A stretch of DNA of 64,000 nucleotides from a virus. The DNA is taken from IMG/VR virus record IMGVR_UViG_3300015374_000001, positions 30,197-94,196 of that record; one strand, written 5' to 3'. Of this stretch, positions 7,549-62,553 are shown piece by piece. Both the position numbers and the translations under genes were made by a program. The notes beneath the pieces were generated by a model, which was not told where the DNA came from, did not search any database, and saw only the letters and a program-made list of their open reading frames with translations. Within the stretch, counting starts at the first letter, position 1; each line of letters opens with the position of its first letter.

Positions 7549-8036
7549 TGCGCGGAAAACTGTTTTTTGATGGCGGCTGCCGACCTTCTAACCCCGGTCC
7601 TGCGGGATTTGCATGCGTCATTCAAATGGAGAATGGCGACGAGTACACCCTAGCTCGACACATCGGTTTCAAAACCAATAACGAAGCCGAATATTATGGC
7701 CTCATTGTAGGAGTTAAATATGCTGCTGAGTGTGGAGCTACAGAACTTGAGATTTTTACTGATTCAAAACTGGTTGAAGGGCAAATCAATCAGGGTTGGA
7801 AGAGAAAAGATTTCAAGATGAAATGTCTTGCAGCAGAAGCAGAAGATGTTTTACGTAAACATTTCGAAGATAGCTGGGAATTAAACTGGCACAGAAGAGA
7901 GAATAATTCTCTGGCAGATGAACTCTGTACCAAAGCTATCTTAGCTGGGCAGCTAGCGAATCCATTTGTTAGAAAAACTGCGGTCACAGCCGCAGATATT
8001 AGGTCTATGGACCCCTTTAGCCGCCCTTCAACTTAA
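7548..8036 (+). CDS. rnhA: Ribonuclease HI
   Basis: 'FFDGGCRPSNPGPAG', 'TNNEAEY', 'TDSKLV', 'RRENNSLADEL' catalytic DEDD. Confidence 0.93.
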   Translation: MRGKLFFDGGCRPSNPGPAGFACVIQMENGDEYTLARHIGFKTNNEAEYYGLIVGVKYAAECGATELEIFTDSKLVEGQINQGWKRKDFKMKCLAAEAEDVLRKHFEDSWELNWHRRENNSLADELCTKAILAGQLANPFVRKTAVTAADIRSMDPFSRPST

Positions 8037-8132
8037 TAATTAGTTGAACCCATGCCCATCGTGTTTCACCACGGGCTAATATCCCCTCTAACGGGATAAG
8101 CGACGAGTCCTTGGCGACAAATTCGGTCAACC

Positions 8133-8162
8133 TTGAGGTATCGCCCGCGAGAGTGCTACACT
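8133..8162 (+). promoter_or_regulatory. Sigma70-type promoter TTGAGG-18-TACACT (extended -10)
   Basis: Both hexamers plus TG. Confidence 0.55.
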
Positions 8163-8167
8163 GCGGC

Positions 8168-8280
8168 AGTCGCTCTCGACACAGGCGACACCCTAGCACA
8201 CCCCCGTTACCCCTCACTGCCTTTGTACCCTCACTCCGAAGGCAGACCCCTGAAGCGCGGTAGCGGGGGTGTGCTGCTTC
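8168..8280 (+). ncRNA. Candidate ~110-nt sRNA
   Basis: GTCGC/GCGAC hairpin, then AGCACACCCCCGTTACC/GGTAGCGGGGGTGTGCT stem with inner CTGCCTT/AAGGCAG. Confidence 0.5.
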
Positions 8281-8281
8281 A

Positions 8282-8290
8282 TGCTATGAT
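8282..8290 (+). promoter_or_regulatory. Extended -10 TGCTATGAT, probably leaderless transcript
   Basis: 8 nt before ATG 8299, no SD; same 9-mer at 12891 and 22342. Confidence 0.65.
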
Positions 8291-8298
8291 CCCGCGTC

Positions 8299-8901
8299 AT
8301 GGCGTCACGGCAATGGACCCCTCCCAAAGAGGATGGATTTATTTATATAGACGAGCTATGCGAAATAATCCATCGCAGAAACTCGACTGTCCGTAAATGG
8401 GAACGCGAAGGTCGGCTACCTAAACGGCTAATGCCTCAGCGTCGAATCAGGAATTGGCGAGCTTGGACACACAAGCAAGTCCATGGCAAGAACGGAATTG
8501 TTGAATGGATGAAGAAAAACAATCTTCATCCCGGTTCTGCTTTATCTCGATACCAACCTGATGAGGATGATATTAAAAAGCATGTAAGCCACATGCGTAA
8601 GCCTCGTTATTTGCAGCCTGTTCATATGGACATGGCAAGACAATGGGCAAATCGTGGCTGGTATATCGAGCAGATTGCAGAAGAGCTTTTACCGATCACT
8701 CGCTATCAGTCGATTGAAGGTTTGATTCGCGCTCTTACCCAAGCATTTAAGTTAGAGGGATTTGAGATTCCGCCAAGTGCTTTAAGAGAAGAGCGACAGA
8801 AGCAGAAGAAAAAGAATTATTCTCAGACTTCTGGTGCTAAGGCACAGCGTCGTTTGCGGGCGCAACGTAAAGCAGAAGCCGCTAAACAAAACGCGGCATA
8901 G
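8299..8901 (+). CDS. MerR-type HTH DNA-binding protein
   Basis: 'IYIDELCEIIHRRNSTVRKWEREGRLP...R.RNWRAWT' MerR HTH pattern; possible second HTH; basic tail. Confidence 0.7.
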   Translation: MASRQWTPPKEDGFIYIDELCEIIHRRNSTVRKWEREGRLPKRLMPQRRIRNWRAWTHKQVHGKNGIVEWMKKNNLHPGSALSRYQPDEDDIKKHVSHMRKPRYLQPVHMDMARQWANRGWYIEQIAEELLPITRYQSIEGLIRALTQAFKLEGFEIPPSALREERQKQKKKNYSQTSGAKAQRRLRAQRKAEAAKQNAA

Positions 8902-8914
8902 AGAAAGGATCGTT

Positions 8915-9376
8915 TTGGCGCAAACAGTTAAGCGCAGGCGTCGTACTGCTCCGGCTAAAGGAAAGGCCAAGGTCAGCAGGACGAAGCCACGAGTAGAAGA
9001 CACGGAATCTAGCCGGAATAAAGTTGTTAAATCAGTGGAGCATCGCGGCGTTAAAATAGAAGAGGGCCATGTTATCGGCGAGAACGGTCTTCCGGCGATT
9101 AAAATTACCAATCAGGGCTCGGAGCTTGTCCCTGTTGCACAGTACGCGAATGTTACGATTGGGCCTGTTGCTGTCACCCGTTGGGTTGAAGATCCTGGTC
9201 TTCATAAAATTACCGGTGTCGATCCTGACGACTTTGATGATGAGCAGGAATCGATTGCCGCTGCCCACAAAAACAACATCGCGGTCGGGCAAGCTCTACT
9301 TGAGGAAGTAATCGCGGAAGATCGGGAAGCTGTCGAGGAATCTGTGCGGAAGCAGAACCAGAAGGATAAGAAGTAA
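8915..9376 (+). CDS. Hypothetical protein with basic N-terminal tail
   Basis: GAAAGGA RBS, TTG 8915 (MAQTVKRRRR...); core 'ELVPVAQYANVTIGPV'. Confidence 0.6.
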   Translation: MAQTVKRRRRTAPAKGKAKVSRTKPRVEDTESSRNKVVKSVEHRGVKIEEGHVIGENGLPAIKITNQGSELVPVAQYANVTIGPVAVTRWVEDPGLHKITGVDPDDFDDEQESIAAAHKNNIAVGQALLEEVIAEDREAVEESVRKQNQKDKK

Positions 9377-9377
9377 A

Positions 9378-10781
9378 TTGGATGCTGAGCGGGGGCTAAT
9401 CAGCAAAATAATTCAATCTGGCGATCTTGATACAGCGATTGCACGAGGAATTGAGTTAGATCATTTCGCTGATGAGGAATGCGAAGAGATATATGATTTC
9501 CTGCTAGACCATTGGCGGAAGTACAAATCTACCGCAACAGCCAAGGTTGTCCGCAAAGAATTCCCTGATTTCAAGGTAGCGGTAGATCGCAACACCCTCC
9601 CCTATTTCATTGATCAATTCGTAACGACTGTCAAGGAGCGCGAGGCAATTGATCTTGTCCGCGACTTCCACGAAGCTCTAGAAGATCCAGAGCAGATTAA
9701 TGAAATAGAGCTAGTTGCGCTTGAGATGGCTCGCAAGCTGGTAGATGTAGTGCCAGCACCCCGCGTCAAGAAATTTTCTGAGGGGCTTGAGCGGATAAAG
9801 GAATACGATAAGCGTAAGAAGGAAGGGATGCCGCCAGGTGTGATGATGGGTATTCCCTCTTTTGACCGGGAAACGCTTGGAGCACAGCCGCATGAATTGG
9901 TTACTGTAGTCGCCTATCTAGGCGTGGGAAAATCAAAGCTTCTACAGCATGTCGCGTATTCAGCTTATTTGCAGAAAAAGACGGCTGTATATATCTCCCT
10001 TGAGATGGAAGCCGAAGCAATCCTACGTTCGCTTGACACTATGGCCACTAATTTTAAATACCATTCGCTCAAAGCCCTCGAACTTGATATTGGGGATCGT
10101 GAGCAATGGGAAAAGCTGGCCGAACAGGCTCACGAGGATCGACACGAGCGCGATATCTACATCATTGACGATATCCGAAACTGCACTGTCGATAATGTGG
10201 CAGCAAAACTCTTGCGGTACAAGCCAGATGTAGTAATTACGGACTACATGGAATTAATGCGGACGCCGAAAGGAATTGGGGGAGCGCATTGGGAACAGGT
10301 CCAATACACGACGCAGGGTCTTAAGCAAAATGCGAGACTCTTTCGCGTCCCTCATATCTCGGCTGCTCAGCTTAACCGCGAGGGCGGCAAGGGTGAGGCT
10401 AGCCTTGCGAACGTTTCCTATCAATCTGTTGGCAAGGACTCCGATTTACTTATTGGACTCAATCAGGACGAGGAAGACGAAGCGCAGCAGGAAATGAAGG
10501 CTATGCTGCTCAAGAACAGGGACGGTCGCAAGACCAGTACGAAACTGCGCTGGCAGTTAGAGCGCCATGTCATCCAAGAAAAAGGCGTGGCCGAACGCTT
10601 CCCTGAAAGAAATGATGATGGTAAGCTGAAGAATCCCAAGTTCAAGGGACGTAAGACTAGGCGAGAGCAAGATAAATTGCAGGTCGCGGATGAACTCAAA
10701 GGCGAAGATAATCCATGGAAGCCAAGAAAGCGTATGCGGGGATCGGCTCGCGCAAAACCCCGCAGTCGATCCTTAACTTAA
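9378..10781 (+). CDS. dnaB: Replicative DnaB-like helicase
   Basis: Walker A 'AYLGVGKS', 'ISLEM', 'DYMELM', 'AAQLNRE', 'KNRDG'. Confidence 0.9.
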   Translation: MDAERGLISKIIQSGDLDTAIARGIELDHFADEECEEIYDFLLDHWRKYKSTATAKVVRKEFPDFKVAVDRNTLPYFIDQFVTTVKEREAIDLVRDFHEALEDPEQINEIELVALEMARKLVDVVPAPRVKKFSEGLERIKEYDKRKKEGMPPGVMMGIPSFDRETLGAQPHELVTVVAYLGVGKSKLLQHVAYSAYLQKKTAVYISLEMEAEAILRSLDTMATNFKYHSLKALELDIGDREQWEKLAEQAHEDRHERDIYIIDDIRNCTVDNVAAKLLRYKPDVVITDYMELMRTPKGIGGAHWEQVQYTTQGLKQNARLFRVPHISAAQLNREGGKGEASLANVSYQSVGKDSDLLIGLNQDEEDEAQQEMKAMLLKNRDGRKTSTKLRWQLERHVIQEKGVAERFPERNDDGKLKNPKFKGRKTRREQDKLQVADELKGEDNPWKPRKRMRGSARAKPRSRSLT

Positions 10782-11302: not shown

Positions 11303-11781
11303 AAGCCTATGATCCCCCGCCAGAAGACGCTAAAGAGATTAATGAATTCACCTGGCGCGATGGACAACGCTGGATACATGGCGTTCCTAGCAACTTTTAT
11401 ATTGAGCCTGATGGTACGTCTGTTGAGATGGAGTTTCAGGCTGCTAAGACAAAGAACCCATTTGAAAAGAAATACATTTTTTCTTCGCCTACGCCGGGAG
11501 TCGCCAAGCAGCGCGGCAAAGAAGTCACGTTACTGAAGAATTGGGATGGTATTAAAGTAAAGGTGATGGAGGGCCTGGTCCGTCAGAAGTTCAATGACCA
11601 TCCTGAGCTTGCCGCCTGGCTACTGGCTACCGGCGAGGCGATTCTACGGGAAGACAATACGTGGCACGATCAGTATTGGGGCAACTGCACGTGCTACGAG
11701 CGTAAGCATTTCTATAGGATCGGCGAGAATCATTTGGGCAAGATCCTGATGAAGATCCGCAAAGAATTAAATGCCGCGTAG
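11299..11781 (+). CDS. NADAR family protein (YbiA-like)
   Basis: 'SNFY', 'E..FQAAK', 'AK..G', 'WD..K..VM....QKF', 'LLATG', 'D.YWG', 'G.NHLGKILM..R'. Confidence 0.9.
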   Translation: MKAYDPPPEDAKEINEFTWRDGQRWIHGVPSNFYIEPDGTSVEMEFQAAKTKNPFEKKYIFSSPTPGVAKQRGKEVTLLKNWDGIKVKVMEGLVRQKFNDHPELAAWLLATGEAILREDNTWHDQYWGNCTCYERKHFYRIGENHLGKILMKIRKELNAA

Positions 11782-12898
11782 ACGTAGACTCAAAGCAAGC
11801 GAATGGCTGCACAAGGTCGATGTGCAGGACTTCCTTGAAACGCTTGACATAATGAATATATCTCAGGCGCGTACCGATGAGCTTAAATTCTCTTGCCCCT
11901 TCTCAGGCCATTCGCACGGCGACGAGAACCCATCGGCCTACATGAACACGGGTGTAGTCGAGCCAGAGCGAGCTACTAAATGGAAGTGCCACGGCTGCAA
12001 TCGCTCAGGCAATGCCATCTCGTTCCTCTCAGAGCACGAGGATATAAGTAAATTTGAAGCTGCTACCTGGCTGCGGCGAGAGTATGCCAGCGATTTCCGT
12101 TCTCCAAAGGGCGGCACTATCTCGGCAGAGTTTGAACAGCGGCGTAGGAAGTTCGAGGAAATGCGACAGCGCTCCTACGAAGCTGATCCATACCTAGACG
12201 AAGCTTGTCTATATCCTTTTGCGGTGAATTGGGATAAGGTACAGCAGGATGATTCTGATGCCGCTCAGTATTTAATTGGTCGTGGATTCGAGATAGATAC
12301 TCTCAAGGAATGGGAAATCGGCTATGACGCAACCTCCGAAAGATGGGTTATCCCCGTGCGGGATAAGGATGGATTACTTGTGGGGTTCAAGGCACGTGCC
12401 TGGCGAGAAGGTCATAAACCTAAGTACCTCGTCCTGGGCGGACGTAGCTATGATTTTTCAACTTTTGACAAGTCTCACCATGTCTTCGGGCTCCACAGAG
12501 CAGCAGGAAGCTTTTCAGCGATTATTTGCGAAGGAGAATTAAATGTCATAGCAATGAATCAGATGGGTTTACATAACGCCATTTCGATCAGCGGTTCTAG
12601 CATGAGCGATAGGCAAGCTAAACTGATCCGCGATCATTTTACTTTGGCGTATTTATTTCTGGATCACGACAATGCAGGACACGCCGCGACCTGGGGATGG
12701 ACAAGCAAGGACGGCACAGAGCATCGTGGAATTGTGGACCTTTTAGAACCGTTCATGAAGGTCTATATCGTCGGTCCGCATGAAGGCGATCCGGCAGATA
12801 TGATGCGGGATGGCAAGGACGATGAAGCTCAGCAGCTAATCGATAATGCCGAGGCCAGTACAAACTACGTTGCAATCCCCGATAGTCCCGTGCTATGA
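11771..12898 (+). CDS. dnaG: DNA primase (CHC2 Zn finger + TOPRIM)
   Basis: 'CPF..H...NPS', 'CHGC', 'PKYL', 'CEGE', 'DHDNAG', 'DPAD'. Confidence 0.9.
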   Translation: MPRRRRLKASEWLHKVDVQDFLETLDIMNISQARTDELKFSCPFSGHSHGDENPSAYMNTGVVEPERATKWKCHGCNRSGNAISFLSEHEDISKFEAATWLRREYASDFRSPKGGTISAEFEQRRRKFEEMRQRSYEADPYLDEACLYPFAVNWDKVQQDDSDAAQYLIGRGFEIDTLKEWEIGYDATSERWVIPVRDKDGLLVGFKARAWREGHKPKYLVLGGRSYDFSTFDKSHHVFGLHRAAGSFSAIICEGELNVIAMNQMGLHNAISISGSSMSDRQAKLIRDHFTLAYLFLDHDNAGHAATWGWTSKDGTEHRGIVDLLEPFMKVYIVGPHEGDPADMMRDGKDDEAQQLIDNAEASTNYVAIPDSPVL

Positions 12899-12954: not shown

Positions 12955-13773
12955 TTGGCAAGAACAAGATCCCGCACAGAAAAGCCAGGCCGCACTTTAG
13001 GAAAAGTTGCACGTGCCAAAAAGCGCGTCGATAGCAAAATGAGCGGCGGCAAGAAATTTTTGACGATTGAAGACGGCGAAACTGTTGTCATGCGTTTTCT
13101 TGAAGAGGGCGAAGACTTCAAGGATGCATATGTGCATAACACGCCTTTCGAGCGCGACGATGGAAGTACGTATTATCTCGACGTTCCCTGTCTCGATCAG
13201 GATGAAAAAGGTGTGCCTTGCCCTGGCTGCCGCGACGAGCTAGATATTAGATATAAATTCTATGTCTGCGCTATCGTCCGTGATTATCCTGAAGTCGATG
13301 ACAACGGCAAGGTTCTTGATGAAAAAGATCAGGTTGTTGTCTGGACTGGTGGCGTCAAGGTTGGAGATAAATTAGCTAAGAAGCATTCTCGATATGGTCT
13401 TATGTCGCGGGATTGGGAAATCACCCGTGATGGCGTTAAGCTCAAGACCGAATATGAAATTGAGCCTGCCGGTGATGGCGCTGAGCCAATGTCGAAGGAA
13501 GACAAGCAACTGGCAGAAACAAAGCCTGATTTAACCTTCTATGTGAAGCCGCCAGAGTTCGAAGAGTTTTATGTCTCTCCGAAGGATCGCGGAGATGCCA
13601 AAGCAGTAGAGGAAGGCAAGAAAGCAAATCCATGGGGAGAGCGTAAAAAGTCTGGTGGGAAGACAAAAGCAAAATTCCGTAGTAGCCGTAGTAGCGGCGA
13701 GGATGGAGAAACAAAGGTGCGCTCCGGGCGAAAGCGCTCTAAAGGCACCACTAAAGTTCGTCGCCGCCGGTAG
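12955..13773 (+). CDS. gp32-like single-stranded DNA-binding protein
   Basis: 'FL.I.DGE..VMRFL', H...C...CPGC Zn site, 'RDWEITR.G..L.TEY'; located after primase. Confidence 0.75.
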   Translation: MARTRSRTEKPGRTLGKVARAKKRVDSKMSGGKKFLTIEDGETVVMRFLEEGEDFKDAYVHNTPFERDDGSTYYLDVPCLDQDEKGVPCPGCRDELDIRYKFYVCAIVRDYPEVDDNGKVLDEKDQVVVWTGGVKVGDKLAKKHSRYGLMSRDWEITRDGVKLKTEYEIEPAGDGAEPMSKEDKQLAETKPDLTFYVKPPEFEEFYVSPKDRGDAKAVEEGKKANPWGERKKSGGKTKAKFRSSRSSGEDGETKVRSGRKRSKGTTKVRRRR

Positions 13774-13808: not shown

Positions 13809-14318
13809 ATGCCTATTTATAAAATCTATGTCGCCGATGACGACGAAAACCTTGAGTCTTTAGGTGAGGTTGACGCGGCGGATAGCGCTGAGGCCCTTGA
13901 AGGGTTTCTTGATGCAGCGACAGAGCAAGGTGTGGAAGTTGACTACGAAGCTGGATTTGAAGTAATTGAGGAATCCAGCATCGAGCATGTTGATGTTGAG
14001 GAAGAGCCACAGCCGCCCAAGCTGATTGTTAGCGTGGGTAGCGCGGCTGCTAAGCCGAAGCGTGGCCGTCCGAAGGGTTCTGGCCGTAAGCCTGGTCGGC
14101 CTAAGAAGGAAACGGCTGAGGAAGCTCCGAAGCGGCGTGGTCGCCCACCGGGTAGCGGTAAGAAGCGCGGTCCCGGTCGCCCCAAGGGTTCGACTAATAA
14201 AAAGACCACCACAAAGTCAGCGCCTAAAAAGAGCGGGCGTGGGCCGGGTCGCCCGAAGGGGAGCAAGAACAAAACCCGTAAGTCTCCGTTCAAGGGCGGC
14301 GGCTCGGACGACGAGTAA
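13809..14318 (+). CDS. AT-hook / HMGA-like nucleoid protein with acidic N-domain
   Basis: Five GRP[K/P] AT-hook motifs (KRGRPKG, PGRPKK, RRGRPPG, 2x PGRPKG); strong AAGGAGG RBS. Confidence 0.8.
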   Translation: MPIYKIYVADDDENLESLGEVDAADSAEALEGFLDAATEQGVEVDYEAGFEVIEESSIEHVDVEEEPQPPKLIVSVGSAAAKPKRGRPKGSGRKPGRPKKETAEEAPKRRGRPPGSGKKRGPGRPKGSTNKKTTTKSAPKKSGRGPGRPKGSKNKTRKSPFKGGGSDDE

Positions 14319-14340
14319 TAAATAAACTCGTGCCCGAGGA

Positions 14341-15052: not shown

Positions 15053-15270
15053 GCGACGAGAAAGCATATGAAGAAAAATTGCCGACGCCTGGTACCTGGC
15101 CAGAGTGCGAGGTAGGTCAGTGGTACAGGGTTCTCCATGAATGGGATAAAGGAAAAGTAGGTAATTGCATCAGCACTAGCGAGACACTCTTTGGCCATCG
15201 CCATGCTCGCTTGAGGTTCAAGGATGGCCACGAGCGAGGTTTCCGCACACATGATTTGCAGTTAGTTTAA
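15049..15270 (+). CDS. Small SH3-like hypothetical protein
   Basis: Coupled to both neighbours; beta-rich 'VGQ.YRV...GKVG...LRF.DG...F...DL'. Confidence 0.5.
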   Translation: MSDEKAYEEKLPTPGTWPECEVGQWYRVLHEWDKGKVGNCISTSETLFGHRHARLRFKDGHERGFRTHDLQLV

Positions 15271-18200
15271 TGGGTCTAGCTCACCTTCATAAACACTCGG
15301 AATTTTCATCCATTGATGGGACCGGCAACGCTAATCAATATACCAAGCAAGGCTATAAATTCGAGCAAGAATTTATGGCTATTACCGACCATGGTAGATT
15401 GGGCGGCGTATTGGATCATGTCTACGTTTGTCAGAATCCTGATAAGTTTGACGATCCAGACGACCCGACTAAGAAGCGCGGTAAAGACGAAAAGTTAATA
15501 CCGCTGCTCGGGATGGAAGCGTACTGGCGCGATAACCGCTTTCAGGAACAGAAGAGTTACAGCAGTGCAAATCATTTAACTCTGATCGCTGGCAGTCTCC
15601 GTGGTTGGCGGACATTGATGCGTCTATCGAGCAAGGCGTGGATTCCTATCGACCGCAAGGGCGGCTTCAAGGGCAAACCCTGCATCGATTGGGAAATGCT
15701 AGAGGCAGACCACGAGGATTTAATTGTTTGTTCTGGCTGTTTCGCTAGTCCACTTTCTCAATTAATCCTGGCCGGTGATCAATCAGGCGCAGATGAGTAT
15801 TGCTCACGCATGCAGAACCTTCTAGGTGATCGCTTTTGGGGCGAGATAATGCCTCACGATCTAGATGAGCAGCGTTCAATCAATGAAGGCGTAATAAACT
15901 TATCTCAGGAGCATGGCTTTGGCGTCGTCGCAACAGGTGATGTGCATATTCCGTATCAAGAGTGGGAAGATACGGCGCTTGTGCTCAAGATGGTCAGCAC
16001 AAAACAGACGCTCTCCAAGCGCGCCAAAAAGCAAGAGGCTGGCGAAGACGTATACGGAGAGCGGATCGACACCATTTACTTAAGCCCGGAAGACGAGTTC
16101 CGCGAGCAGTTTGCTGAGTACCACGAGGATATCGATGAGGATATTGTCGATGAGGCGATAGCAAATACTGAAGTGTTGGCTCGCTCAGTCAAGCATTTTG
16201 TTATCAGTAATGCCACTAAGCTGCCCAAGGTAGCTAAGACTTCACTAGATGCAGAGCGTATCGTCAAGCGTTGGTGCAAAGAGAGTCAATACCCAACGGG
16301 CAAGCCAAAGAATTGGCAGGAATATCGTGACCGATACAACTATGAATTCAAAGTGCTCCGAGACAAAGGTGTGTTGGACTATTTCATCTTGGTCGGAGAT
16401 ATGGTCCGCTGGGCAAAGAGCAGAGATGCGTTACCCGGTTCTGACAAGCGTAAGCGGCCTATCCGGGTGGGTCTTGGAAGAGGTTCTGCGGCAGGGTGTC
16501 TTATCTCGTATCTCATCGGCATCACCGCAATTGATCCAATTGCCTGGGGTCTGTTGTTTGAGAGGTTTCTGAATCCTGATCGTGTCGGGATGCCGGATAT
16601 TGATCTTGACTTCGAGACTGACTTAAATGATTTCGAAACTCTCGACGGCAAAATGGTGGACGGCCGCGAGATGGTCAAGGAATATCTCAAGGCCAAGTAT
16701 GGTGACGATCACGTAGCGGATATCATTGCCTATCAGACCTTCGCTCCGCGCGTGACAATCAAAGAGGTTGCAGCTACACAGGATCTTCCTTATGGATTCA
16801 TCAAAAAAGTCACAGATTCAATCGGAGATACAGAGCGCGATCTTGAAAAGATTGCAGCAGAAAATGGATTGGTTCGTAAACTCAAGACAGAACACCCCTA
16901 CGTATGGGAACAGTGCTTACGGCTCGAAGATCAAATACTCCGAGATACCCGACATGCAGGCGGCGTGCTCATTACCCCCCGGCCAACAAATGAGTATATG
17001 CCTACTCAGATCGGAAATGATGAGATTACAACAGTCACAGCATGGGCGGATCGTGCCGATTTCCAAATTATCAGTGATTACGGATTTGTAAAGATTGACG
17101 TACTCGGTGTCAAGGGATTAGCGAAGCAGCAACTATGCGTAGATTTAATTGCTGATCACTATGGCGACATAGTTGAACCGAATGATCTACCGGCTCTGCG
17201 CGATCCATACAACGCAGATCAAAAAGCGCTAGACGCATTTACTCAAGGATTGACTCTAGGTGTCTTCCAGTTCTCCGGGCGAGGGATCACAAATCTCCTG
17301 CGCCACATCAAACCAGACAGCACCATCGACATTGCCGTTGCTAATGCCCTTTATCGGCCTGGCCCTATTAAAATTGCATTTGAATATGGGGATCGAAAGA
17401 ACGGGAAGATACCCGAGGCCGATTGGTATTGGCACGATGCCGTCGAGCCCATCTTAAAAGAAACCTGTGGCCTGATTGCCTTCCAAGAGCAGGTTATGGA
17501 AATTACTAAGGTCATCGGTAATTTCACGGGTGGGCAAGCAGACTCAATGCGTAAGGCAATCTCGAAGCTCTACCGGCTCCCTGGTGACCAGGCACGAGCA
17601 TTCATGCAGGGCTTCAAGGATCAATGGTTAGAGGGGTGTGAATCAAATGGCTTGGACGAAACCGCTGCCGGGGTTATCTGGGATGCCATCCTTGAATTCG
17701 CCGGATACGGATTCAACAAATCCCACAGCGCCAGCTACGCCTTGCAGGCATATCAGGATATGTGGCTCAAAGTTAATTATCCCCTTGCGTTTTATGCGGC
17801 CACTCTTACCATCGAACGAAAAGCAAAAGCCGAAGAGGATGCCGAATGGAAGCGAGGGATCTTCCGCGAAGCAGAATTATTCGACGTAAAGATTGATCCG
17901 CCCGATGTAAATGCCAGCGAGCGCGGATTCATTATCGATGGCGACCGGCTGCGTTATGGACTAGTCAGCGTCAAGGGCTTAGGAGGATTGACAGTTGATC
18001 AAGTCAAAGAGGTACGTCCAGTCTCTTCATTTGATGATTTTGCTAGGCGTACCCCAAGCAACTTCGGAGCCGATAATGCCGCCGCACTTGTTAAAGCTGG
18101 CGCATTCGATTCCCTTGGAGAAGATCGGGAAGCGTTACTAGCCAAGACTCGGCGCTGGGCAAAGAACAAATACAACGTGGTGATGGCGTGCGGGTGTAAG

Positions 18201-18893
18201 AAGATGCGGACGGGCGAGCCAGAGGAATGGAAGAAACCTGCCATTTGTGAGAAGCACGATTCGACTGAGATTAAGGAAATGATTGAAGTCGATCCGTACT
18301 ACACCTATGCGGAGCACATTAAGTTCCACTACATGAAGGACAAGGAACCGCCTGAGCAGGAATTGATCGAGCCTTCTCAGAACGAAATCCTTGAGATGGA
18401 AAAAGAAGTGCTCGGTAATGTTGTGTCGCGTGAGACTGTGGTGCATCGCTATCAGGAATTCATTGAAGATCGTATTTTCTCTACAGCAGAGATAGAGGAT
18501 CTGCCGCACAAGCCTGAGGATCACAAACCCTGGTGCGACTGTGATGAATGCGAGGCAGCAAATATCGTGGTGGGCGGCGAGATATTGGCGGTCAAGCCTA
18601 TTGTCACTAAGAAGCAAAAGAAGGAAATGGCTTTTGTTGATCTTGCCTTCGGAGCAGATCAATATGCGATCACGATATTCCCGAAGGCATGGGCCGAGAA
18701 CAAGCACAAGATTAAAGACGCATCAGTGATCTTGGTGGCAGGCTTTAAGGACAATCGCAATCAGATTGTAGCTCAGCACATAGATGATGTTGAGACAATT
18801 GCAGTGGGCGAACAGCGGCGGAAGACGAAGGCAAGTCTTAAGAAAACAACGCGGAAGAAGGCGGGGACTAACCCATGGCTGAAGGCAGCTTAG
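15270..18893 (+). CDS. dnaE: DNA polymerase III alpha subunit
   Basis: PHP 'HLHKHSEFS..DG','AITDHG'; 'GRGSAAG'; 'FERFLNPDR..MPDIDLD'; 'YGFNKSHS'; C-terminal OB fold; no intein seen. Confidence 0.97.
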   Translation: MGLAHLHKHSEFSSIDGTGNANQYTKQGYKFEQEFMAITDHGRLGGVLDHVYVCQNPDKFDDPDDPTKKRGKDEKLIPLLGMEAYWRDNRFQEQKSYSSANHLTLIAGSLRGWRTLMRLSSKAWIPIDRKGGFKGKPCIDWEMLEADHEDLIVCSGCFASPLSQLILAGDQSGADEYCSRMQNLLGDRFWGEIMPHDLDEQRSINEGVINLSQEHGFGVVATGDVHIPYQEWEDTALVLKMVSTKQTLSKRAKKQEAGEDVYGERIDTIYLSPEDEFREQFAEYHEDIDEDIVDEAIANTEVLARSVKHFVISNATKLPKVAKTSLDAERIVKRWCKESQYPTGKPKNWQEYRDRYNYEFKVLRDKGVLDYFILVGDMVRWAKSRDALPGSDKRKRPIRVGLGRGSAAGCLISYLIGITAIDPIAWGLLFERFLNPDRVGMPDIDLDFETDLNDFETLDGKMVDGREMVKEYLKAKYGDDHVADIIAYQTFAPRVTIKEVAATQDLPYGFIKKVTDSIGDTERDLEKIAAENGLVRKLKTEHPYVWEQCLRLEDQILRDTRHAGGVLITPRPTNEYMPTQIGNDEITTVTAWADRADFQIISDYGFVKIDVLGVKGLAKQQLCVDLIADHYGDIVEPNDLPALRDPYNADQKALDAFTQGLTLGVFQFSGRGITNLLRHIKPDSTIDIAVANALYRPGPIKIAFEYGDRKNGKIPEADWYWHDAVEPILKETCGLIAFQEQVMEITKVIGNFTGGQADSMRKAISKLYRLPGDQARAFMQGFKDQWLEGCESNGLDETAAGVIWDAILEFAGYGFNKSHSASYALQAYQDMWLKVNYPLAFYAATLTIERKAKAEEDAEWKRGIFREAELFDVKIDPPDVNASERGFIIDGDRLRYGLVSVKGLGGLTVDQVKEVRPVSSFDDFARRTPSNFGADNAAALVKAGAFDSLGEDREALLAKTRRWAKNKYNVVMACGCKKMRTGEPEEWKKPAICEKHDSTEIKEMIEVDPYYTYAEHIKFHYMKDKEPPEQELIEPSQNEILEMEKEVLGNVVSRETVVHRYQEFIEDRIFSTAEIEDLPHKPEDHKPWCDCDECEAANIVVGGEILAVKPIVTKKQKKEMAFVDLAFGADQYAITIFPKAWAENKHKIKDASVILVAGFKDNRNQIVAQHIDDVETIAVGEQRRKTKASLKKTTRKKAGTNPWLKAA

Positions 18894-20817: not shown

Positions 20818-21038
20818 TGCTTAGATTGCTAGTCCCAATAGTAGGTTTATTAGCTGTTCTAGTTATTCTTACAGCTACTAATTTACCGTTGAAGAATTTT
20901 GATGGCAATCTCTTTGAACCCGGTTGTGATTGGGGCAACCCTCATTGTGAGCGCGAAGACTATAGGGATATGTGTACTAAACATATTTCAATTACAGACG
21001 GTGAATATGTACGTTGGTGCAAAGGTAGGCATTGGTGA
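20814..21038 (+). CDS. Small secreted/membrane Cys-rich protein
   Basis: Hydrophobic N-terminus, 4 Cys. Confidence 0.45.
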   Translation: MMLRLLVPIVGLLAVLVILTATNLPLKNFDGNLFEPGCDWGNPHCEREDYRDMCTKHISITDGEYVRWCKGRHW

Positions 21039-21241
21039 CCAATCCATTCCTTGAGAAAGCCAACAACCCCTTCTTTAAGAAAAAGAAGCGCGTGCGAGTT
21101 ACATGGCAGCACTCCTATGGCGAGAGCGAGCACGTAGGCAAGGTCGTATTTGAAGACAAGAAACACCTGCACGTGCGTAATGCTCAAGGCGTGATGCTTT
21201 ATTTCTTCAAGAAGATCCCTCACAAGTTAGAAGTTCTGTAA
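21035..21241 (+). CDS. Small basic protein with two NPF motifs and an Sm/SH3-like core
   Basis: 'TNPFLEKANNPFFKKKK' then a beta-rich core; coupled to the next gene. Confidence 0.55.
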   Translation: MTNPFLEKANNPFFKKKKRVRVTWQHSYGESEHVGKVVFEDKKHLHVRNAQGVMLYFFKKIPHKLEVL

Positions 21242-22388: not shown

Positions 22389-23879
22389 TTGCTTGACAGT
22401 CTCAAGATTTCCGATGTAAATGCCCAGGCAATTCTGGCACTCGGAATCGCATTTGATGTATTTGATGATGACATTCCTGAGTCTCCGAAGGATCGGATGG
22501 AAGAGGCTCATAAATTAGTCGCCTTTGGAATTGAGGGTTTGCAAGGCGGCACAGATGATGAGGAAGTCGTTGAACAAATTAATGCCATCCTCGCGGCTGG
22601 TGGCGTTGAAGTAGACGGCGACGACGCGGAATTAGTTACTTTCGGCGAAGCTCCTGATCAGGATGAGCTTGAAGAACTTCTCTCGGAGCATGAAGTTGAG
22701 TTCGAATTTGAAGAAAGTGACGAGGAAGAAGAGGGCGACGAGGAAGAGGAAGTCGCCTTTGATGTTGACGACATAATTGAAGATTGGTCGTCAATGAAGT
22801 TGAAGGATGCCAAGGAAACTCTGACTGAGCTTCTGGCAGAGGAAGACGAAGAAGAGCAGCTTTCGTTTGAGGAAATTACCGCGCTGCTCGAATATGAGAA
22901 CGAGCAGGACAAGCCTCGCAAGTCCATCGTCACTCTGCTTGAGGGAGCCCTTGAGGAATTCGAGGGTGAGGAAGAGGAAGAACCTGAAGGCGAGGAAGAG
23001 GGCGAAGAGTCTGAAGAGGAAGGCGAAGAGGAAGAGCCCGAAGGCGAATTTGATGAAGAGCCGTATGAGGGCTACGACGAAGCCAAGGTTGGGGATCTGA
23101 AGGAAGTCATTGATGACGAAGATCGCACGGCCGAAGAGCTTGAGTACATCGCCGGATACGAAGAGGCTCACAAAAATCGCTCTACCATTCTCAAGCGTGT
23201 CAATGACCGCATTGAGGAATTAAGTGAAGAGCCAGAGGCCGAGGGCGAGGAAGAGCCTGAGGAAGAGCCGGAAGAGAAGCCCGCTAAGAAGCGTGGCGGT
23301 AAGAAGGCTAAGAAGGTTGATGCAGAGGAAATTGATGGCGACGAGCTTGAGGAAAATCTCCCGCCGCACTTCGCTGAATTAATCTCCGAGGATCACGCTA
23401 TCGGCGTGGCCGAGGAACTTGGCCTGAAGCCTGCTGATGACGAATATGAGCAGGAAGAGCTTCCGGCTATGCCTGACGATATCGCCGCAGAGGATCGCGG
23501 GGAATTGTCTAATCTCATGGCTCAGTACACAGCAGCGCATGGAACGGCTGCTTGGCTTGGGGCTCAGCAGTACACGCTTTCGAGCGGGTATGAGGAAGTG
23601 GCAGACTATTATGAAAATGCCGCATTCCTTGAGGCCGATGGTAGCGAGGCCACTAAGAAGGCGTCGGCCAAGACTGACGGCCGGGTGGTCTACTTCCGCA
23701 GCCAGCAGAAAAAGGCATACAACCAGTACGTTGTCATGCGCGATGTGAAGGACACGCTCAAGCGGCGTATAGAGACAATTAGCCGTGTGGGCGGATTCAA
23801 GGTCGATGCGGATGACGCTGAGGCTCAGTCGGCACCGGCAAAGCCCAAGGGACGCAGGACTCGCAGCCGTTCTAAGTAA
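22389..23879 (+). CDS. Hyper-acidic multidomain protein with two helical repeats and a coiled-coil C-domain
   Basis: Long E/D tracts; repeats 'YENEQDKPRKSIV' and 'YEEAHKNRSTIL'; basic C-terminal tail. Confidence 0.7.
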   Translation: MLDSLKISDVNAQAILALGIAFDVFDDDIPESPKDRMEEAHKLVAFGIEGLQGGTDDEEVVEQINAILAAGGVEVDGDDAELVTFGEAPDQDELEELLSEHEVEFEFEESDEEEEGDEEEEVAFDVDDIIEDWSSMKLKDAKETLTELLAEEDEEEQLSFEEITALLEYENEQDKPRKSIVTLLEGALEEFEGEEEEEPEGEEEGEESEEEGEEEEPEGEFDEEPYEGYDEAKVGDLKEVIDDEDRTAEELEYIAGYEEAHKNRSTILKRVNDRIEELSEEPEAEGEEEPEEEPEEKPAKKRGGKKAKKVDAEEIDGDELEENLPPHFAELISEDHAIGVAEELGLKPADDEYEQEELPAMPDDIAAEDRGELSNLMAQYTAAHGTAAWLGAQQYTLSSGYEEVADYYENAAFLEADGSEATKKASAKTDGRVVYFRSQQKKAYNQYVVMRDVKDTLKRRIETISRVGGFKVDADDAEAQSAPAKPKGRRTRSRSK

Positions 23880-31510: not shown

Positions 31511-32606
31511 TAAAAACGGCTTTCCGATTCTGCTGGCCCAAGCTCCGGGCCAGGTAGCCGATCAAGGTGTGCCGTCTGGTGCATCAGTACAGCGCGACAC
31601 TCAGCACGGTAACCCTTGGTTCGATCCTAAGACAGGGCGCTTCAGCAACGGGCCTGCCAATATGAAAATAGTTGCGGGTGGTCAGTTATTTGAGAAGCTG
31701 ATCAATGTTTCTCGTCAACTAATTCAGCGCAATATCGAGATGACCAAGGCTGATCAGATCGCGCTCTATCAAGTCGGCAACAGCATCAAGGTTGTATTGC
31801 TTGTGAACGGCTCGCCACGAGCTTCCTTCCAAGTACCGTCAGAAGATACGCCGGAAGATGAATTTAATGTCGCGGAACTAGAAGGGCAGGCTGGCCTCGG
31901 TGATCCTACTGGACCTAAGAATAGATCTGACTTACCCGATGGAATTGATGAACTCCAATGGGAACGCCGCCTTGACGCAGTTAGAGACTTGGCCCGAACC
32001 TCCGACACCCTGGAACCAGAAGATGTTAAACAATGGCTTGAAGATCGAGCCAAGGAAATCAGTAGTATCGATATTGATCAATTTATTCGAGATGTAAGAG
32101 CCCATCGGCTTGACGATCTAGCTGATGCGATAAACACGAACCAGATGACTGCGCAAGAGAAGCGTGGACAAGTCCGTGTAGCTGCTCCGCAGAAATGGAT
32201 CAATGACAACATGCAGGGGCTAGAGGATCATGAAATCCTCAAGCTTGCCAATCGTCTTCAGGCTCGTGGATGGTCTGACGAGGATCTTAAATCAAAGGTA
32301 TTGGCGAAGATCAAGGATGAGTCGCGGCGGACTGATCTTGAACAAAAGCTTGGCGAAGAGCCGCAGATACCAGAGCCAGCGCCAGTGCAGCTTGAGGATC
32401 TTCAGATAGCTGAGACTACTGAAGAAAGCCAATGGCAAAAAGACGTACAACAATTCTTTATGGATGCAATGAAGAGTATGCCACCGCCTCAGGTGAATGT
32501 AGAAGTGCCCGTGACTGTTGAGCGTGGCACGACCAATCGTAAAGTCATCCGTGATGAGCGCGGATATATTTCAGAAATAGTGGAGTCAAATGACAGTAGC
32601 GATTGA
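31488..32606 (+). CDS. Putative virion protein
   Basis: 'NPW.D.KTGRF' motif seen in head-associated proteins; C-terminal 'V.RDERGYI'; start uncertain. Confidence 0.45.
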   Translation, partial: ASMAMPVDKNGFPILLAQAPGQVADQGVPSGASVQRDTQHGNPWFDPKTGRFSNGPANMKIVAGGQLFEKLINVSRQLIQRNIEMTKADQIALYQVGNSIKVVLLVNGSPRASFQVPSEDTPEDEFNVAELEGQAGLGDPTGPKNRSDLPDGIDELQWERRLDAVRDLARTSDTLEPEDVKQWLEDRAKEISSIDIDQFIRDVRAHRLDDLADAINTNQMTAQEKRGQVRVAAPQKWINDNMQGLEDHEILKLANRLQARGWSDEDLKSKVLAKIKDESRRTDLEQKLGEEPQIPEPAPVQLEDLQIAETTEESQWQKDVQQFFMDAMKSMPPPQVNVEVPVTVERGTTNRKVIRDERGYISEIVESNDSSD

Positions 32607-57810: not shown

Positions 57811-57828
57811 ACTAGTCCACAGAAAGAG

Positions 57829-57861: not shown

Positions 57862-57917
57862 CACTACACGGTACGACAGGTACGGGATACCCACTAACGG
57901 GTAGCGGGCTGACAAGC

Positions 57918-58491: not shown

Positions 58492-58582
58492 TTCTTGATA
58501 ACGCATCCCTCCTTCAAAGGGATCGGGTCTAGTAAGACTAGTACAGGTCGCGCGAGAGCGCAAGACTGTACCGGATCTTGCA

Positions 58583-58996: not shown

Positions 58997-59100
58997 TTAT
59001 GTTTCCTTCCTCATCACGCTCCACGATTTGATTAGCAAACCACTTCAGCAGGGGCGAAACATCAAAGCGGTGGTAATTGGGATCATCTTTGTGGATGATT

Positions 59101-59382
59101 CTATCCTGACTCAATGTCTCGCCTTCCTCCCTCAATCGATTTTCCTTTTCTTAATTGTCCACCTTCGTTCATCGGGATATGCCGATCCATATAGTTGTAT
59201 ACCCCGGTGCGGGTCATTTCCATATCGCTGGCAATTATTTCCATATCCAGACCCTTGGCATGGCCAGCTTTGATTGCTTTGGCTAATTCTCTTTCCCTGC
59301 GCGCGAGCCTGATACGCAACTCGTTGCGCTGATTTATTAAGCCCTGGATCTTGGCTCTATGTAAATTAATGAGCGTGGCCAT
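59101..59382 (-). CDS. Small HTH protein
   Basis: 'G.....IA..M.MTR.GVY'. Confidence 0.55.
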   Translation of the reverse strand: MATLINLHRAKIQGLINQRNELRIRLARRERELAKAIKAGHAKGLDMEIIASDMEMTRTGVYNYMDRHIPMNEGGQLRKGKSIEGGRRDIESG

Positions 59383-59476
59383 TGCCGGTGATCGCCGAGA
59401 CTATGATGAATAAAATAATTAAACGACACATCCAAACTTCAATACTAGTTAGTGGACGATACTGGTATTTCTTCAT
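59366..59476 (-). CDS. 36-aa membrane peptide (MKKYQYRPLTSIEVWMCRLIILFIIVSAITGNGHAH), not in track
   Basis: GGAGG RBS; fills the gap between neighbours. Confidence 0.45.
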   Translation of the reverse strand: MKKYQYRPLTSIEVWMCRLIILFIIVSAITGNGHAH

Positions 59477-60549
59477 GATCCACCTCCCTGTAAAGCCGCC
59501 AGAAATGACGCCACTCTGGCCCATGTGTCTCGTCATCTAGACCGATGGAATAGCCAGGTAAAAAGCGAGCAACGGCATACAGCGCCGATGCAACTGTGAT
59601 CCAACCGGCGATGCCCGCGTTAGGGAACGACTCATTAAAGTAAGTGCATTCCATCACCGGCCCACTGATATCAATGTAGGCTAGATTTGAGTTAATATCC
59701 ATAGAGTTACCCATCCAGGCACCGTAGACGTACTCCACATCTTCGGTGTCGAGGCGGTAATAACCCTTGATGGACCCTCGTTGGTCCAGCGGATCAATCC
59801 ATACTGCATCAAAATAACCTTCTTCGGTTTCAGTGTATAGGATTTTGTGGAAAGGCTGATCCGACTTCTGGAATATTTTGTATCGGAGTGTTTGGAAGTG
59901 GGGCTTGCCCTTCACTATTAGTTCCAGACTTGGGCTGAGACTTCCCACGTGCTGCTTTGGCCTTGCGTCGAGAATTTGCATTACGCCGTCGCCTCCTTTC
60001 TTCTGGTGGGTCTAGGATATCCGCGATTCGTTTACTGTTTTCCGCGTGCTTACGTAGAGAGTCAGCGATTTGTGCTGAATTCTTCGCCATTTACTTCCTC
60101 GCATTCGAGCCGAGAGACTTATTACGATTCAGAGAACCAGGCCGCTTACGTCCGGTGTCGCTCTGGTGCTTATTATCGTAATCGTCTTGGCGTGCCTTCA
60201 GAGTTTTCTTCGCTCGCCTATGTGCTCGGGCGCTCAATTACTTACCTCCATCTGCTTTGCTGTTGCGAATAAGTTCAAGCAGACGCTTTTCGTGAGGCGT
60301 CTTCGCTGCGCCGATGCGCTCAAGCTTGGTCATGATCCAATACCGGTCATGCTCGCTCATCTTGATCGTGTACGTGCGCTCACGCTTTTCCAAAGTCTCT
60401 TCCTTGATCGCTTGGCGGGTGGTCTTAGCCTTCTCAGGATTGGCCTTCTTTTTTACGGTGCGCTTCTTCGCCTGGCTTGGACCGCGACCCTTACCGAACG
60501 TGCTCTTTTCTTTCGCCTTGCCATTCGTCTTAGTCTTCAATACAGCCAT
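59445..60549 (-). other. Cluster of hypothetical genes, several Lys/Arg-rich (59445-59981, 59830-60090, 60091-60237 not in track, 60238-60549)
   Basis: Abutting ORFs with RBSs. Confidence 0.5.
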
Positions 60550-60554
60550 CGCCG

Positions 60555-61175
60555 CTACCTCTTCTTTCTGTTAAATGGATTAACTGTCGCTTTCTTTTTC
60601 ACAGTCGCCTTACGCTGCCCGGTCTTAGGATCGGTGGGCTCAGGCTTCTTTGGATTTTTCTTCTTTTGTTGAGCCTTCTTAAGGTCGGCGTGAGGGAAAT
60701 GATCTATCCCGTGGTGGGGAGCAGATCGTCCTTGTCGCTTAAGCTCTGAATACCAACGCTCAATGATTAATTGCTTTAACCAGGGCTTAGGCTCAGTGTA
60801 AGAATCGCCCAGGTCAAGTAACCAACCATGGCGATTATCAAAGCGATACGTAACATCACCGTTGATAACTTCAATTGTCCAAAACCCATCATGCTCGCGC
60901 ACGTGACCAATGCGTACTCCGTTATTAGTTACGTCCTGCTTGTCTGAGGCTACGTGCTGCGCCTCGCGCTTCTTTAATTGCTTCGCCTTCCACGGATCTA
61001 CGTTCTCAGGCGGCGCAGGAAGCTCTACGCCGACAATGCCGCTCGCCGGTACGTCAGTTAGTACCTTCTTCTTGCTCGCGCTCGCGCGCTTCTCTTTCGA
61101 GAACGGATTGCTTTTTCCTGCCTTGGGGCTTGGCTTCGGCTTCTTCTTCTGAAACGGGTTCTTGGTAGCTGGCAT
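60555..61175 (-). CDS. Lys-rich protein with three NPF motifs
   Basis: KNPFQKKK, SNPFSKEK and C-terminal VNPFNRKKR around a small globular core. Confidence 0.65.
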   Translation of the reverse strand: MPATKNPFQKKKPKPSPKAGKSNPFSKEKRASASKKKVLTDVPASGIVGVELPAPPENVDPWKAKQLKKREAQHVASDKQDVTNNGVRIGHVREHDGFWTIEVINGDVTYRFDNRHGWLLDLGDSYTEPKPWLKQLIIERWYSELKRQGRSAPHHGIDHFPHADLKKAQQKKKNPKKPEPTDPKTGQRKATVKKKATVNPFNRKKR

Positions 61176-61378
61176 CTTCTGGTTCCTCAATGTAGTTGGC
61201 TACGATCTGATAATGCCCCTCTGTATTTTGGTTAATTCCTAATTGATCAAGTACATCGGCGAGAGCATCACCAAGCTCATCGGCCGGTGTATTAATTGGC
61301 TCGTTTGGGACGCCTGACTCTACAACCTGAATCTGATATGGCATCGTACCCTCCTTAGAAGTGTCACATCATACTACA

Positions 61379-61690
61379 CTACTTGCCGACGACGCGCAAC
61401 TTCGGCTTTGGTTCCTCGCCCTTCTCGGATGGCGAGTCTGTATGAAAGTCCCAAGTTCCTAATTTGATTAACTCCACGCCGAGAGCTTGAGCCAGCACGA
61501 TTGCTTGCCGGAAGGACAGACCACGCTCAGCAGTTTCGATGCGGCTGATGTGGGACGAGTCCATGTTGGCTTTGACAGCTAGATCAGCTTGGGATAGCTC
61601 TCTGTTGGTACGCAGGGCTTTGATGTTTTTGCCTACAAATAAGTTAAACTGAAGATCAGCTTTTTCATATGCGGGGTTCCTGGGTGGCAA
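61379..61690 (-). CDS. XRE-family HTH regulator
   Basis: 'G.NIK.LR....LSQ..LA......S.ISRIE..ER......LA.ALGV'. Confidence 0.88.
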   Translation of the reverse strand: MPPRNPAYEKADLQFNLFVGKNIKALRTNRELSQADLAVKANMDSSHISRIETAERGLSFRQAIVLAQALGVELIKLGTWDFHTDSPSEKGEEPKPKLRVVGK

Positions 61691-62553
61691 GTAATTCCTT
61701 CACCTTTCTAAATGCTTCAGTTGATCTATTAATTGCTTCTGTCATCTTAAGTTGGTAGGCATACACACGCTTTATGCCGCGCAGGTAGCTTTTAATGTAA
61801 AATTGGAGGATGAGATTAATATAGAAAGCTTCGGCCATCGCCGCTTGATGTTCCCAATCCTCATCCGAATTTAATTGATAGTCACCGGGACGGTGCCCCC
61901 ATGCGACTGTTCCTCTCGGTGATTGAATTTTCGAACTCCACCACCTTGGCGATGCCATCGCGCGTATTGCTGTAGAGCATGATCGCTTCAGTCGATAGCC
62001 GGTGTTCCACCAAAGCCGCCTCAATAATATCGTGGGCTTTGTTAAGCGCATTAATTTCCCTTGTCGTCAATCAAATCAGTCCTTAAAATTTCTGTTTCTC
62101 TAGGCGTCAAGCTCCAATAGTCCGCCGCATCAGAGATGACGTAAGCCGTATCAGGATTTTCTTGCAAAAGATCACGAGCAAAAGCCACCACCGCACGCCT
62201 ACGGTTACCGCCGTTCTCTAGCAAATACTGCTGAGTCAGTGTCAGTGCTTTACCCATGGATTCACCTCTTTGTACTCGCTGCTAACTATTCCTCCGCTGG
62301 ATACCTCACCGGCCCATAAGGCCCATCTAACTTCATGCATTTCTCTATTTGAATCAGGAAGCAGGATTTTATCCTTGTAAATGATGAAGGTGTATGGATG
62401 CTCGCCTTTGTTCTCGGTCCCATGAATTAGATTGGTTTCCCGATTCAAAACTATAGATTCGTGCTTAAGTAATTCATCTATATTCATATCCACGCCTCCA
62501 AATTTCCCACAGGCAAGGGGAATCTCATTGCTAAAAATTTACGATCCATTCAA

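What the first reader, a model, noticed from the sequence alone, without database searches (positions are those of the whole stretch)
7959..62262. Recurrent NP[F/W] short linear motif in basic tails of many unrelated replication/early proteins: candidate phage tail-tag docking system
Seen: NP[F/W], usually beside Lys/Arg and outside the folded domain, in RNase HI (LANPFVRK, 7959; also MDPFSR), DnaB (DNPWKPRKR, 10710), SSB (KKANPWGERKK, 13627), the DnaE extreme C-terminus (GTNPWLKAA, 18870), ORF 21035 (two copies, 21041 and 21065), ORF 60555 (three copies, 60573, 61101, 61152) and the ORF 62242 C-terminus (VNPWVKH). Variants occur in the AT-hook protein (KSPFK) and SLOG protein (DDPW). The NPF copies use different synonymous codons (AAT/AAC, CCA/CCC/CCG, TTT/TTC), which points to selection at the protein level. 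Established: short aromatic-terminated tail motifs organise replisomes (SSB C-terminal DDDIPF, clamp-binding motifs), and NPF is the ligand of eukaryotic EH domains. Inference: a shared hub-binding or compartment-targeting tag, with the multi-NPF small proteins acting as adaptors or competitors. Caveat: three NPW copies (DnaB, DnaE, 62242) contain the ATG of the next gene (CC-ATG-G) and could be by-products of gene overlap.
Basis: partly seen in the sequence, partly recalled or inferred. Interest (0 to 1): 0.85.

Follow-up and report, generated by a model that had tools for sequence, protein, structure and literature searches.

The report
Shared NPF/NPW docking tag, phage replisome
An uncultured 94-kb soil phage puts the same short peptide (Asn-Pro-Phe/Trp followed by Lys/Arg) on the floppy ends of its helicase, RNase H, polymerase, single-strand DNA-binding protein and several small proteins. 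In related phages this peptide is the conserved tail tip of the T4-type single-strand DNA-binding protein, so it is most likely an undescribed docking tag, though what reads it is still unknown.

Summary
NP[FW] occurs 15 times in the coding frame of this 94,196-bp phage, against 3.5-3.9 expected. There are none in the other two frames of the coding strand. Twelve copies are tag-like (near a terminus, followed by K/R) against 0.7 in local shuffles.

The motif is conserved in relatives:
- It is the C-terminal tip (NPF-[LM]-R-x-[RK]) of a large family of T4-gp32-type SSBs: 41 of 122 representatives carry NP[FW] and 90 of 122 carry [NS][PAVI][FW].
- It recurs on DnaB and RNase H tails, encoded by codons that contain no ATG, so it is not a by-product of gene overlap.
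- It sits at the N-terminus (M-x-NPF-x-x-K) of all eight homologues of the three-copy protein ORF 60555.

Best reading: an SSB-tip docking tag copied onto other proteins. This resembles gp32's C-terminal docking domain, the bacterial SSB tip and the shared T7 helicase/SSB tails, but the tag is basic rather than acidic.

The reader protein is not identified. A conserved hyper-acidic protein (22389-23879) is only a candidate, and one complex prediction gave no answer. Compartment targeting is untested. This scan found the same tag earlier on another phage genome (e1-5359320). I found no paper describing it.

The parts
12955..13773 (+). T4-gp32-type SSB gene. Core is residues ~35-210; the disordered basic tail from ~215 carries the tag.
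   Evidence: PHROG SSB families. AF2 model has pLDDT >90 in the core and 50-60 in the tail. Foldseek matches T4 and RB69 gp32 at E 7.5e-7 to 1e-5, while the next hits are at E ~0.07. H61, C79, C89 and C92 are nearly invariant.
13627..13635 (+). NPW tag in the SSB tail (KKANPWGERKK)
   Evidence: It aligns with the family's C-terminal NPFMR[NR]R tip. The aromatic column is at least 90% conserved in 65 SSBs.
10710..10718 (+). NPW tag in the DnaB C-terminal tail (EDNPWKPRKR)
   Evidence: DnaB_C domain covers residues 154-395; the tag is at residue 445 of 467. Relatives have KINPWTAKAGR, TNPWSVRHR and GNPFEKFMR at the DnaB C-end, encoded without an ATG.
7959..7967 (+). NPF tag just after the RNase H fold (LANPFVRK), followed by a second conserved motif, MDPFS
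   Evidence: RVT_3/RNase_H domain covers residues 7-130; the tag is at 138 of 162. Orthologues have RNPWHRPQK...LDPFS and ANPWLKKKR...LDPFP.
18870..18878 (+). NPW at the extreme C-end of DnaE (GTNPWLKAA). It overlaps the ATG of ORF 18875-19588.
   Evidence: It is kept only in the 85%-identical relative. More distant DnaE proteins end in basic ...K[IL]K[IR]KKVAA or in acidic tails.
21041..21073 (+). Two NPF tags at the N-terminus of a 68-aa protein (M-VTNPFLEKANNPFFKKKKR), encoded between the UvsX-like and nuclease genes
   Evidence: A similarly placed 83-aa protein in L179 starts MADVTRRNPFILKAKRR.
60555..61175 (-). 206-aa basic protein with three NPF tags (61152-61160 and 61101-61109 at the N-terminus, 60573-60581 at the C-terminus) flanking a conserved small domain
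   Evidence: The N-terminal M-x-NPF-x-x-K is kept in all 8 homologues (35-72% identity). A C-terminal NPF is kept in 4 sequences, counting this one. Copy number varies from 1 to 3. The same domain in L175 carries two C-terminal NPF copies.
62254..62262 (-). NPW at the C-end of an 83-aa protein (EVNPWVKH). It contains the RBS-spaced ATG of the next gene (62257).
   Evidence: It could be an overlap by-product. No relatives were found.
63890..63898 (-). NPF just after an HNH domain (VHNPFLERV). Uncertain member.
   Evidence: HNH_3 covers residues 1-28 of the called ORF. The site lies between the HNH domain and a Cys-rich C-terminal part.
14283..14291 (+). SPF variant near the C-end of the AT-hook protein (TRKSPFKGGG)
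   Evidence: SPF+basic is the second commonest SSB tip in the family.
11455..11463 (+). NPF inside the NADAR fold (KTKNPFEKK). Probably structural, not a tag.
   Evidence: NADAR domain covers residues 41-157. The orthologue has HPW at the same column.
31611..31619 (+). NPW in a conserved GNPWFDPKTGRF block. Not a tag.
   Evidence: The same block is present in G2, and as GNPNFDPVTGKF in G1. There is no basic context.
22389..23879 (+). Hyper-acidic 496-aa protein (pI 4.05, net charge -109). It is conserved in the family's recombination module and never carries the tag. It is only a candidate reader.
   Evidence: The AF2 model of a relative shows three helical domains joined by acidic linkers. 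The resemblance to T4 UvsY is inconclusive.

Best explanation
NP[FW] followed by Lys/Arg is a short docking peptide. Its home is the C-terminal tip of the phage's T4-gp32-type SSB, which ends a disordered tail. In this phage the same peptide has been copied onto flexible ends of DnaB, RNase H, DnaE, two or three small proteins of unknown function and probably the AT-hook protein. I infer that these proteins therefore reach the same reader or readers as the SSB tail and gather at SSB-coated DNA in replication and recombination. Proteins with two or three copies would bind with higher avidity, acting as adaptors or as competitors of the SSB tail. The likeliest readers are conserved phage proteins that never carry the tag: primase, the UvsX-like recombinase, the PD-(D/E)XK nuclease and the hyper-acidic multi-domain protein. 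A host protein is also possible.

Shown: the motif, its non-random placement, its conservation, and the SSB fold. Inferred: that it binds a protein, and which one.
For: (1) Enrichment, frame specificity, basic context and terminal position in this genome.
(2) Fourteen related IMG/VR loci hold 29 copies against 6.2 expected (Poisson 3e-11). In eight of them the SSB ends in NPF[ML]R[NR]x.
(3) Among 122 full-length representatives of the SSB family, 41 have NP[FW] in the last 45 aa (1.1 in shuffled tails) and 90 have [NS][PAVI][FW] (9.5 in shuffled tails). Preferred following residues are +1 L/M, +2 R, +4 R/K.
(4) The aromatic column is at least 90% conserved in a 65-sequence SSB alignment.
(5) F and W swap between orthologues, and 11 different codon triplets encode 20 terminal tags in relatives. 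This points to selection on the peptide.
(6) The tag is kept at the termini of the ORF 60555 family while the linkers and the copy number change.
(7) The SSB is gp32-type. In T4 the gp32 C-terminal domain is the docking site for UvsX, UvsY, Dda and gp59 (PMC3016280; PMC11551737).
(8) Primase (15 of 15 relatives) and the UvsX-like protein (12 of 12) never carry the tag. The acidic protein family showed no NP[FW] in the members examined.
Against: No reader has been identified, so binding is an inference from sequence patterns alone. Proteome-wide spread is strong only in this phage; relatives G1 and G2 are near expectation genome-wide. The NPW on DnaE is kept only in an 85%-identical relative. 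Two or three NPW copies coincide with downstream start codons, and NPW shows a CCA codon bias. The tails are basic, unlike every characterised SSB docking tail, so direct binding to nucleic acid or membrane cannot be excluded. In this phage's own SSB the tag lies 45 residues from the C-end, not at the tip.
Confidence: 0.6

Rival explanations
1. The tails are generic basic-aromatic nucleic-acid (or anionic membrane) binding tails. Lys/Arg provide electrostatic binding, Phe/Trp stacks or inserts, and no dedicated reader protein exists.
For: The context is strongly basic. All carriers act on DNA. Many proteins in this phage have K/R-rich tails.
Against: Asn-Pro is specifically required. DP[FW], SP[FW], KP[FW], NPY and NPL are not enriched. 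Many family SSB tips have NPF without basic residues, for example NPFLDN, NPFINN, NPFMQS and NPFL-end. The position of the aromatic residue is fixed in the SSB alignment.
Confidence: 0.15
2. The tag is a terminal degradation or remodelling signal, read by a host AAA+ protease or unfoldase such as ClpX or by an adaptor, that times the turnover of early and replication proteins.
For: It sits at the extreme N- or C-terminus in many carriers (M-x-NPF......NPFMRNR-end...NPWLKAA-end). From my own knowledge, untested here: ClpX signals are terminal and often basic (MuA RRKKAI, ssrA LAA), and DnaE tails of relatives end in KKVAA.
Against: It is conserved as the tip of an abundant structural SSB, where tails in all studied systems recruit partners. 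In this phage's SSB, DnaB and RNase H the tag is 20-45 residues from the end. There is no resemblance to a defined degron consensus.
Confidence: 0.08
3. The tag is an address label for a compartment or condensate (a replication factory, or packaging into the capsid), not a pairwise replisome contact.
For: There are multi-copy carriers, and a hyper-acidic multi-domain protein is encoded in the same module.
Against: No compartment shell or scaffold gene was recognised. The structural proteins of this phage do not carry the tag. Nothing was tested here.
Confidence: 0.1
4. The pattern is chance plus by-products of gene overlap (CC-ATG-G start codons).
For: Three NPW copies contain the next gene's ATG, and NPW has a CCA bias (6 of 7). 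The motif was picked post hoc from many possible tripeptides; NP[FW] ranks 33rd among xy[ab] patterns in the composition model, where the 15 top-ranked patterns listed are all EE- or GG-based.
Against: With the three overlap copies removed, 12 against 3.5-3.9 remains, and 9 tag-like copies against 0.7. Relatives supply independent replication. The DnaB and RNase H tail NPW copies in relatives have no ATG.
Confidence: 0.03

Closest known systems
T4 gp32 C-terminal (A) domain, the docking site for UvsX, UvsY, Dda, gp59 and others (PMC3016280; gp32-Dda structure 8GME, PMC11551737)
   Same: It has the same SSB fold (Foldseek E 7.5e-7, Zn ligands H/C/C/C). A disordered C-terminal tail follows the core, and the neighbouring genes include UvsX-like and possibly UvsY-like proteins.
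   Different: The gp32 tail is acidic. Here the tail is basic and built around a defined N-P-F/W core, and the same peptide also sits on other proteins.
Bacterial SSB C-terminal tip (D-D-D-I/L-P-F), which recruits a dozen or more genome-maintenance proteins (own knowledge)
   Same: It is a short tip containing Pro-Phe at the end of a disordered linker and is conserved across a large SSB family. Tip mimicry by other proteins is known or suspected.
   Different: The SSB fold is different. The bacterial tip is acidic and needs the free C-terminal carboxylate of Phe. Here Phe is followed by 1-5, mostly basic, residues (or 45 residues in this phage) and is preceded by Asn.
T7 gp4 helicase-primase and gp2.5 SSB, which share acidic C-terminal tails ending in Phe that bind the polymerase (own knowledge)
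   Same: The helicase and the SSB carry the same tail motif, which implies a common reader.
   Different: In this phage the polymerase is itself a carrier.
Clamp-binding motifs (QL[SD]LF on beta clients, the PIP box, T4 gp45-binding tails)
   Same: They are short terminal aromatic peptides shared by many DNA enzymes and are often flanked by basic residues.
   Different: The consensus does not match. No clamp gene was recognised. In most relatives the polymerase lacks the tag.
Eukaryotic NPF ligands of EH domains
   Same: The N-P-F core is identical, and some carriers have several copies.
   Different: No EH or EF-hand domain was found in the proteins scanned. The biology is unrelated, and the resemblance is probably convergent, since NPF readily forms a turn.

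Membership tests
T4 gp32-type SSB (for ORF 12955-13773) | gp32 core fold (OB fold with an inserted Zn-binding subdomain) | tested here: met
   The AF2 core has pLDDT >90. Foldseek matches 8gme_A, 1gpc and 2a1k at E 7.5e-7 to 1e-5 with probability 1.0, well clear of the next hits. It also matches PHROG SSB families.
T4 gp32-type SSB | His + 3 Cys zinc ligands | tested here: met
   H61, C79, C89 and C92 are at least 90% conserved in 65 sequences. The spacing C-x9-C-x2-C is the same as in gp32 (own knowledge of gp32).
T4 gp32-type SSB | Acidic C-terminal A-domain | tested here: not met
   The tail (residues 215-272) is rich in K/R and carries NPW.
Bacterial SSB-Ct-type tip | Conserved Pro-Phe-containing peptide at the end of a disordered tail | tested here: met
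   31 of 122 family representatives have NP[FW] within the last 12 residues, and 90 of 122 have [NS][PAVI][FW] in the last 45. In this phage it lies 45 residues from the end.
Bacterial SSB-Ct-type tip | Acidic residues before a C-terminal Phe carboxylate | tested here: not met
   Phe is followed by [LM]-R-x-[RK], and the preceding residues are mixed.
Bacterial SSB-Ct-type tip | Read by several partner proteins | not testable with these tools
   The one complex prediction gave no answer (see Tried and rejected).
EH-domain/NPF system | N-P-F core | tested here: met
EH-domain/NPF system | An EH (paired EF-hand) reader domain in the same system | tested here: inconclusive
   Pfam scans of about 36 phage proteins found no EF-hand or EH family. 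Not all 138 ORFs were scanned, and no host proteins were.
Beta-clamp or PIP clamp-binding motif | Consensus QL[SD]LF / Qxx[LIM]xx[FY][FY] | tested here: not met
   The tag consensus is x-N-P-[FW]-[LM..]-[RK]. No Gln or Leu positions are conserved.
T4 UvsY mediator (for ORF 22389-23879 and its family) | UvsY fold or sequence | tested here: inconclusive
   UvsY chains are the Foldseek top hits (probability 1.0, TM-target 0.65-0.71, E 0.14). In VIA-align, however, their Z of 8.5-9.2 (rmsd 3.1-3.5 over 114-118 residues) ties with generic helical hairpins. A profile search of PDB sequences does not find UvsY.

The most novel reading that the evidence does not exclude
A charge-reversed SSB-tip code. 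A whole family of uncultured gp32-type phages would use N-P-F plus basic residues as a portable address, read by one dedicated phage hub. The best candidate for that hub is the conserved hyper-acidic, multi-domain, possibly UvsY-like protein. The hub would assemble helicase, RNase H, polymerase, SSB and small regulators into a replication-recombination factory. The multi-tag small proteins would tune valency or block the hub.
Probability: 0.15. Interest if true: 0.85.

Novelty: new variant of a known kind. Interest (0 to 1): 0.62.

Why it matters
SSB tails are the main organisers of genome-maintenance proteins, but only acidic tips (bacterial DDDIPF, T7, T4) have been characterised. This work defines a different tip that is easy to recognise. 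It is used by hundreds of gp32-type SSB clusters from uncultured phages (1,187 profile hits, 230 of them at E<=1e-10). One phage has spread the tip over at least eight other proteins. That gives a ready list of candidate clients, including small early proteins of unknown function.

Tried and rejected
- Complex prediction: acidic protein of relative L184 (alignment A4) with the L184 SSB tail (A5, residues 190-241). Result: no answer, ipSAE 0.00 in two runs, controls not run. This is neither support nor evidence against binding.
The contexts of the closest DnaE and SSB homologues, including the 85%-identical P0002, could not be fetched.
- The near-identity DNA search of phage GenBank records and the single-protein scan of IMG/VR found nothing. 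The genome search draws no 'relatives' for a virus record.
- Sequencing runs: no RNA holder was listed. Contigs from four rhizosphere or soil runs were at least 99% identical, with five single-base differences and none in a tag codon, so microdiversity says nothing about selection.
- The ESM Atlas gave no usable hit for the central domain of ORF 60555.
- Pfam and PHROGs gave nothing for ORFs 18875-19588, 21032-21241, 22389-23879, 60555-61175 and 62242-62493.
- Literature searches for an NPF motif in phage or SSB contexts found only eukaryotic EH-domain papers.
- Rejected: a DNA-level motif, because there are no off-frame copies on the coding strand and relatives use varied codons.
- Rejected: a broader [DNST]P[FW] helix-cap motif, because only N is enriched.
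- Rejected: a 2A-like NPGP skipping site, because the sequence does not fit.
- Rejected: a beta-clamp motif, because the consensus does not fit and the polymerase usually lacks the tag.

Full report
Setting. The window is the last 64 kb of a single 94,196-bp virus contig. Genes run on the plus strand from about 6.6 to 88 kb of the contig. A block of small minus-strand genes spans the contig ends. The window holds a replication-recombination module:
- ResIII helicase, 5039-6544
- RNase H, 7548-8036
- DnaB, 9378-10781
- SLOG-like protein
- NADAR protein
- DnaG-type primase, 11771-12898
- SSB, 12955-13773
- AT-hook protein
- DnaE, 15270-18893
- UvsX-like recombinase, 19600-20817
- PD-(D/E)XK nuclease, 21241-22335
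- a hyper-acidic 496-aa protein, 22389-23879
- RuvC-like resolvase

There is no close relative among deposited phages. Near-identical DNA occurs in several rhizosphere and soil metagenome runs.

Noticed in passing
window 18780-18893; proteins P0003-P0088: DnaE of dozens of metagenomic relatives ends in a basic tail with a near-constant ...K[IL]K[IR][KR]K-V-A-A (or KAA/AVA) C-terminus. Another subgroup ends in acidic tails. This looks like a second conserved terminal signal, reminiscent of ClpX-type C-terminal signals, though that comparison is from my own knowledge and untested.
   Followed up: partly
window 22389-23879; G1 (L084) about 41639 and 42547: The hyper-acidic 496-aa protein (net charge -109) belongs to a conserved three-domain family encoded after the nuclease gene. 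Its C-terminal helical hairpin gives T4 UvsY as the top Foldseek hit, but this is inconclusive. In relative G1 the homologue is split over two reading frames, which could be a frameshift or two genes.
   Followed up: partly
window 8834-9376 (+): An ORF overlapping the end of 8299-8901 and stopping just before DnaB is the orthologue of a conserved small protein (ELVPVAQYANVT motif). In relatives this protein is always encoded directly upstream of DnaB, so it may be a helicase loader. In four relatives it starts with the NPF tag. Here it carries no tag.
   Followed up: partly
window 31590-31650 (ORF 31467-32606): A conserved block, GNPWFDPKTGRF (GNPNFDPVTGKF in G1), lies near the N-terminus of the protein encoded after the 892-aa protein. 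It is a folded or functional motif unrelated to the basic tag.
   Followed up: no
window 8010-8030 (RNase H residues ~152-158): A second conserved aromatic motif, [ML]DPF[SP], lies about 15-20 residues after the NP[FW] tag in the RNase H tail of this phage, G1 and L173.
   Followed up: no
window 10715, 18875, 62257: Three genes start at an ATG embedded in AAY-CCA-TGG of the upstream gene's tail. AATCCATGG also occurs at 13627, 31476 and 50174 without starting a gene of any size. NPW copies use CCA in 6 of 7 cases, against 26% genome-wide.
   Followed up: partly
loci L178, L179, L184, L186 (nuclease, ~337 aa): The PD-(D/E)XK nuclease of relatives has an invariant SPHGNPWH[VT]S.H.SQFP block at residue ~64. 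The window's orthologue (21241-22335) lacks the NPW.
   Followed up: no
window 60750-60950 (ORF 60555-61175, residues ~85-150): A conserved small domain, HVREHDGFWT[IV][DE]V.NGD.TYRFDNR.G.W, matches no family (Pfam, PHROGs, ESM Atlas). In every homologue found with intact termini it is flanked by NPF tags.
   Followed up: partly
whole window: Near-identical DNA (at least 99%) is present in contigs of several rhizosphere and soil metagenome runs from different years. No RNA run was listed.
   Followed up: partly
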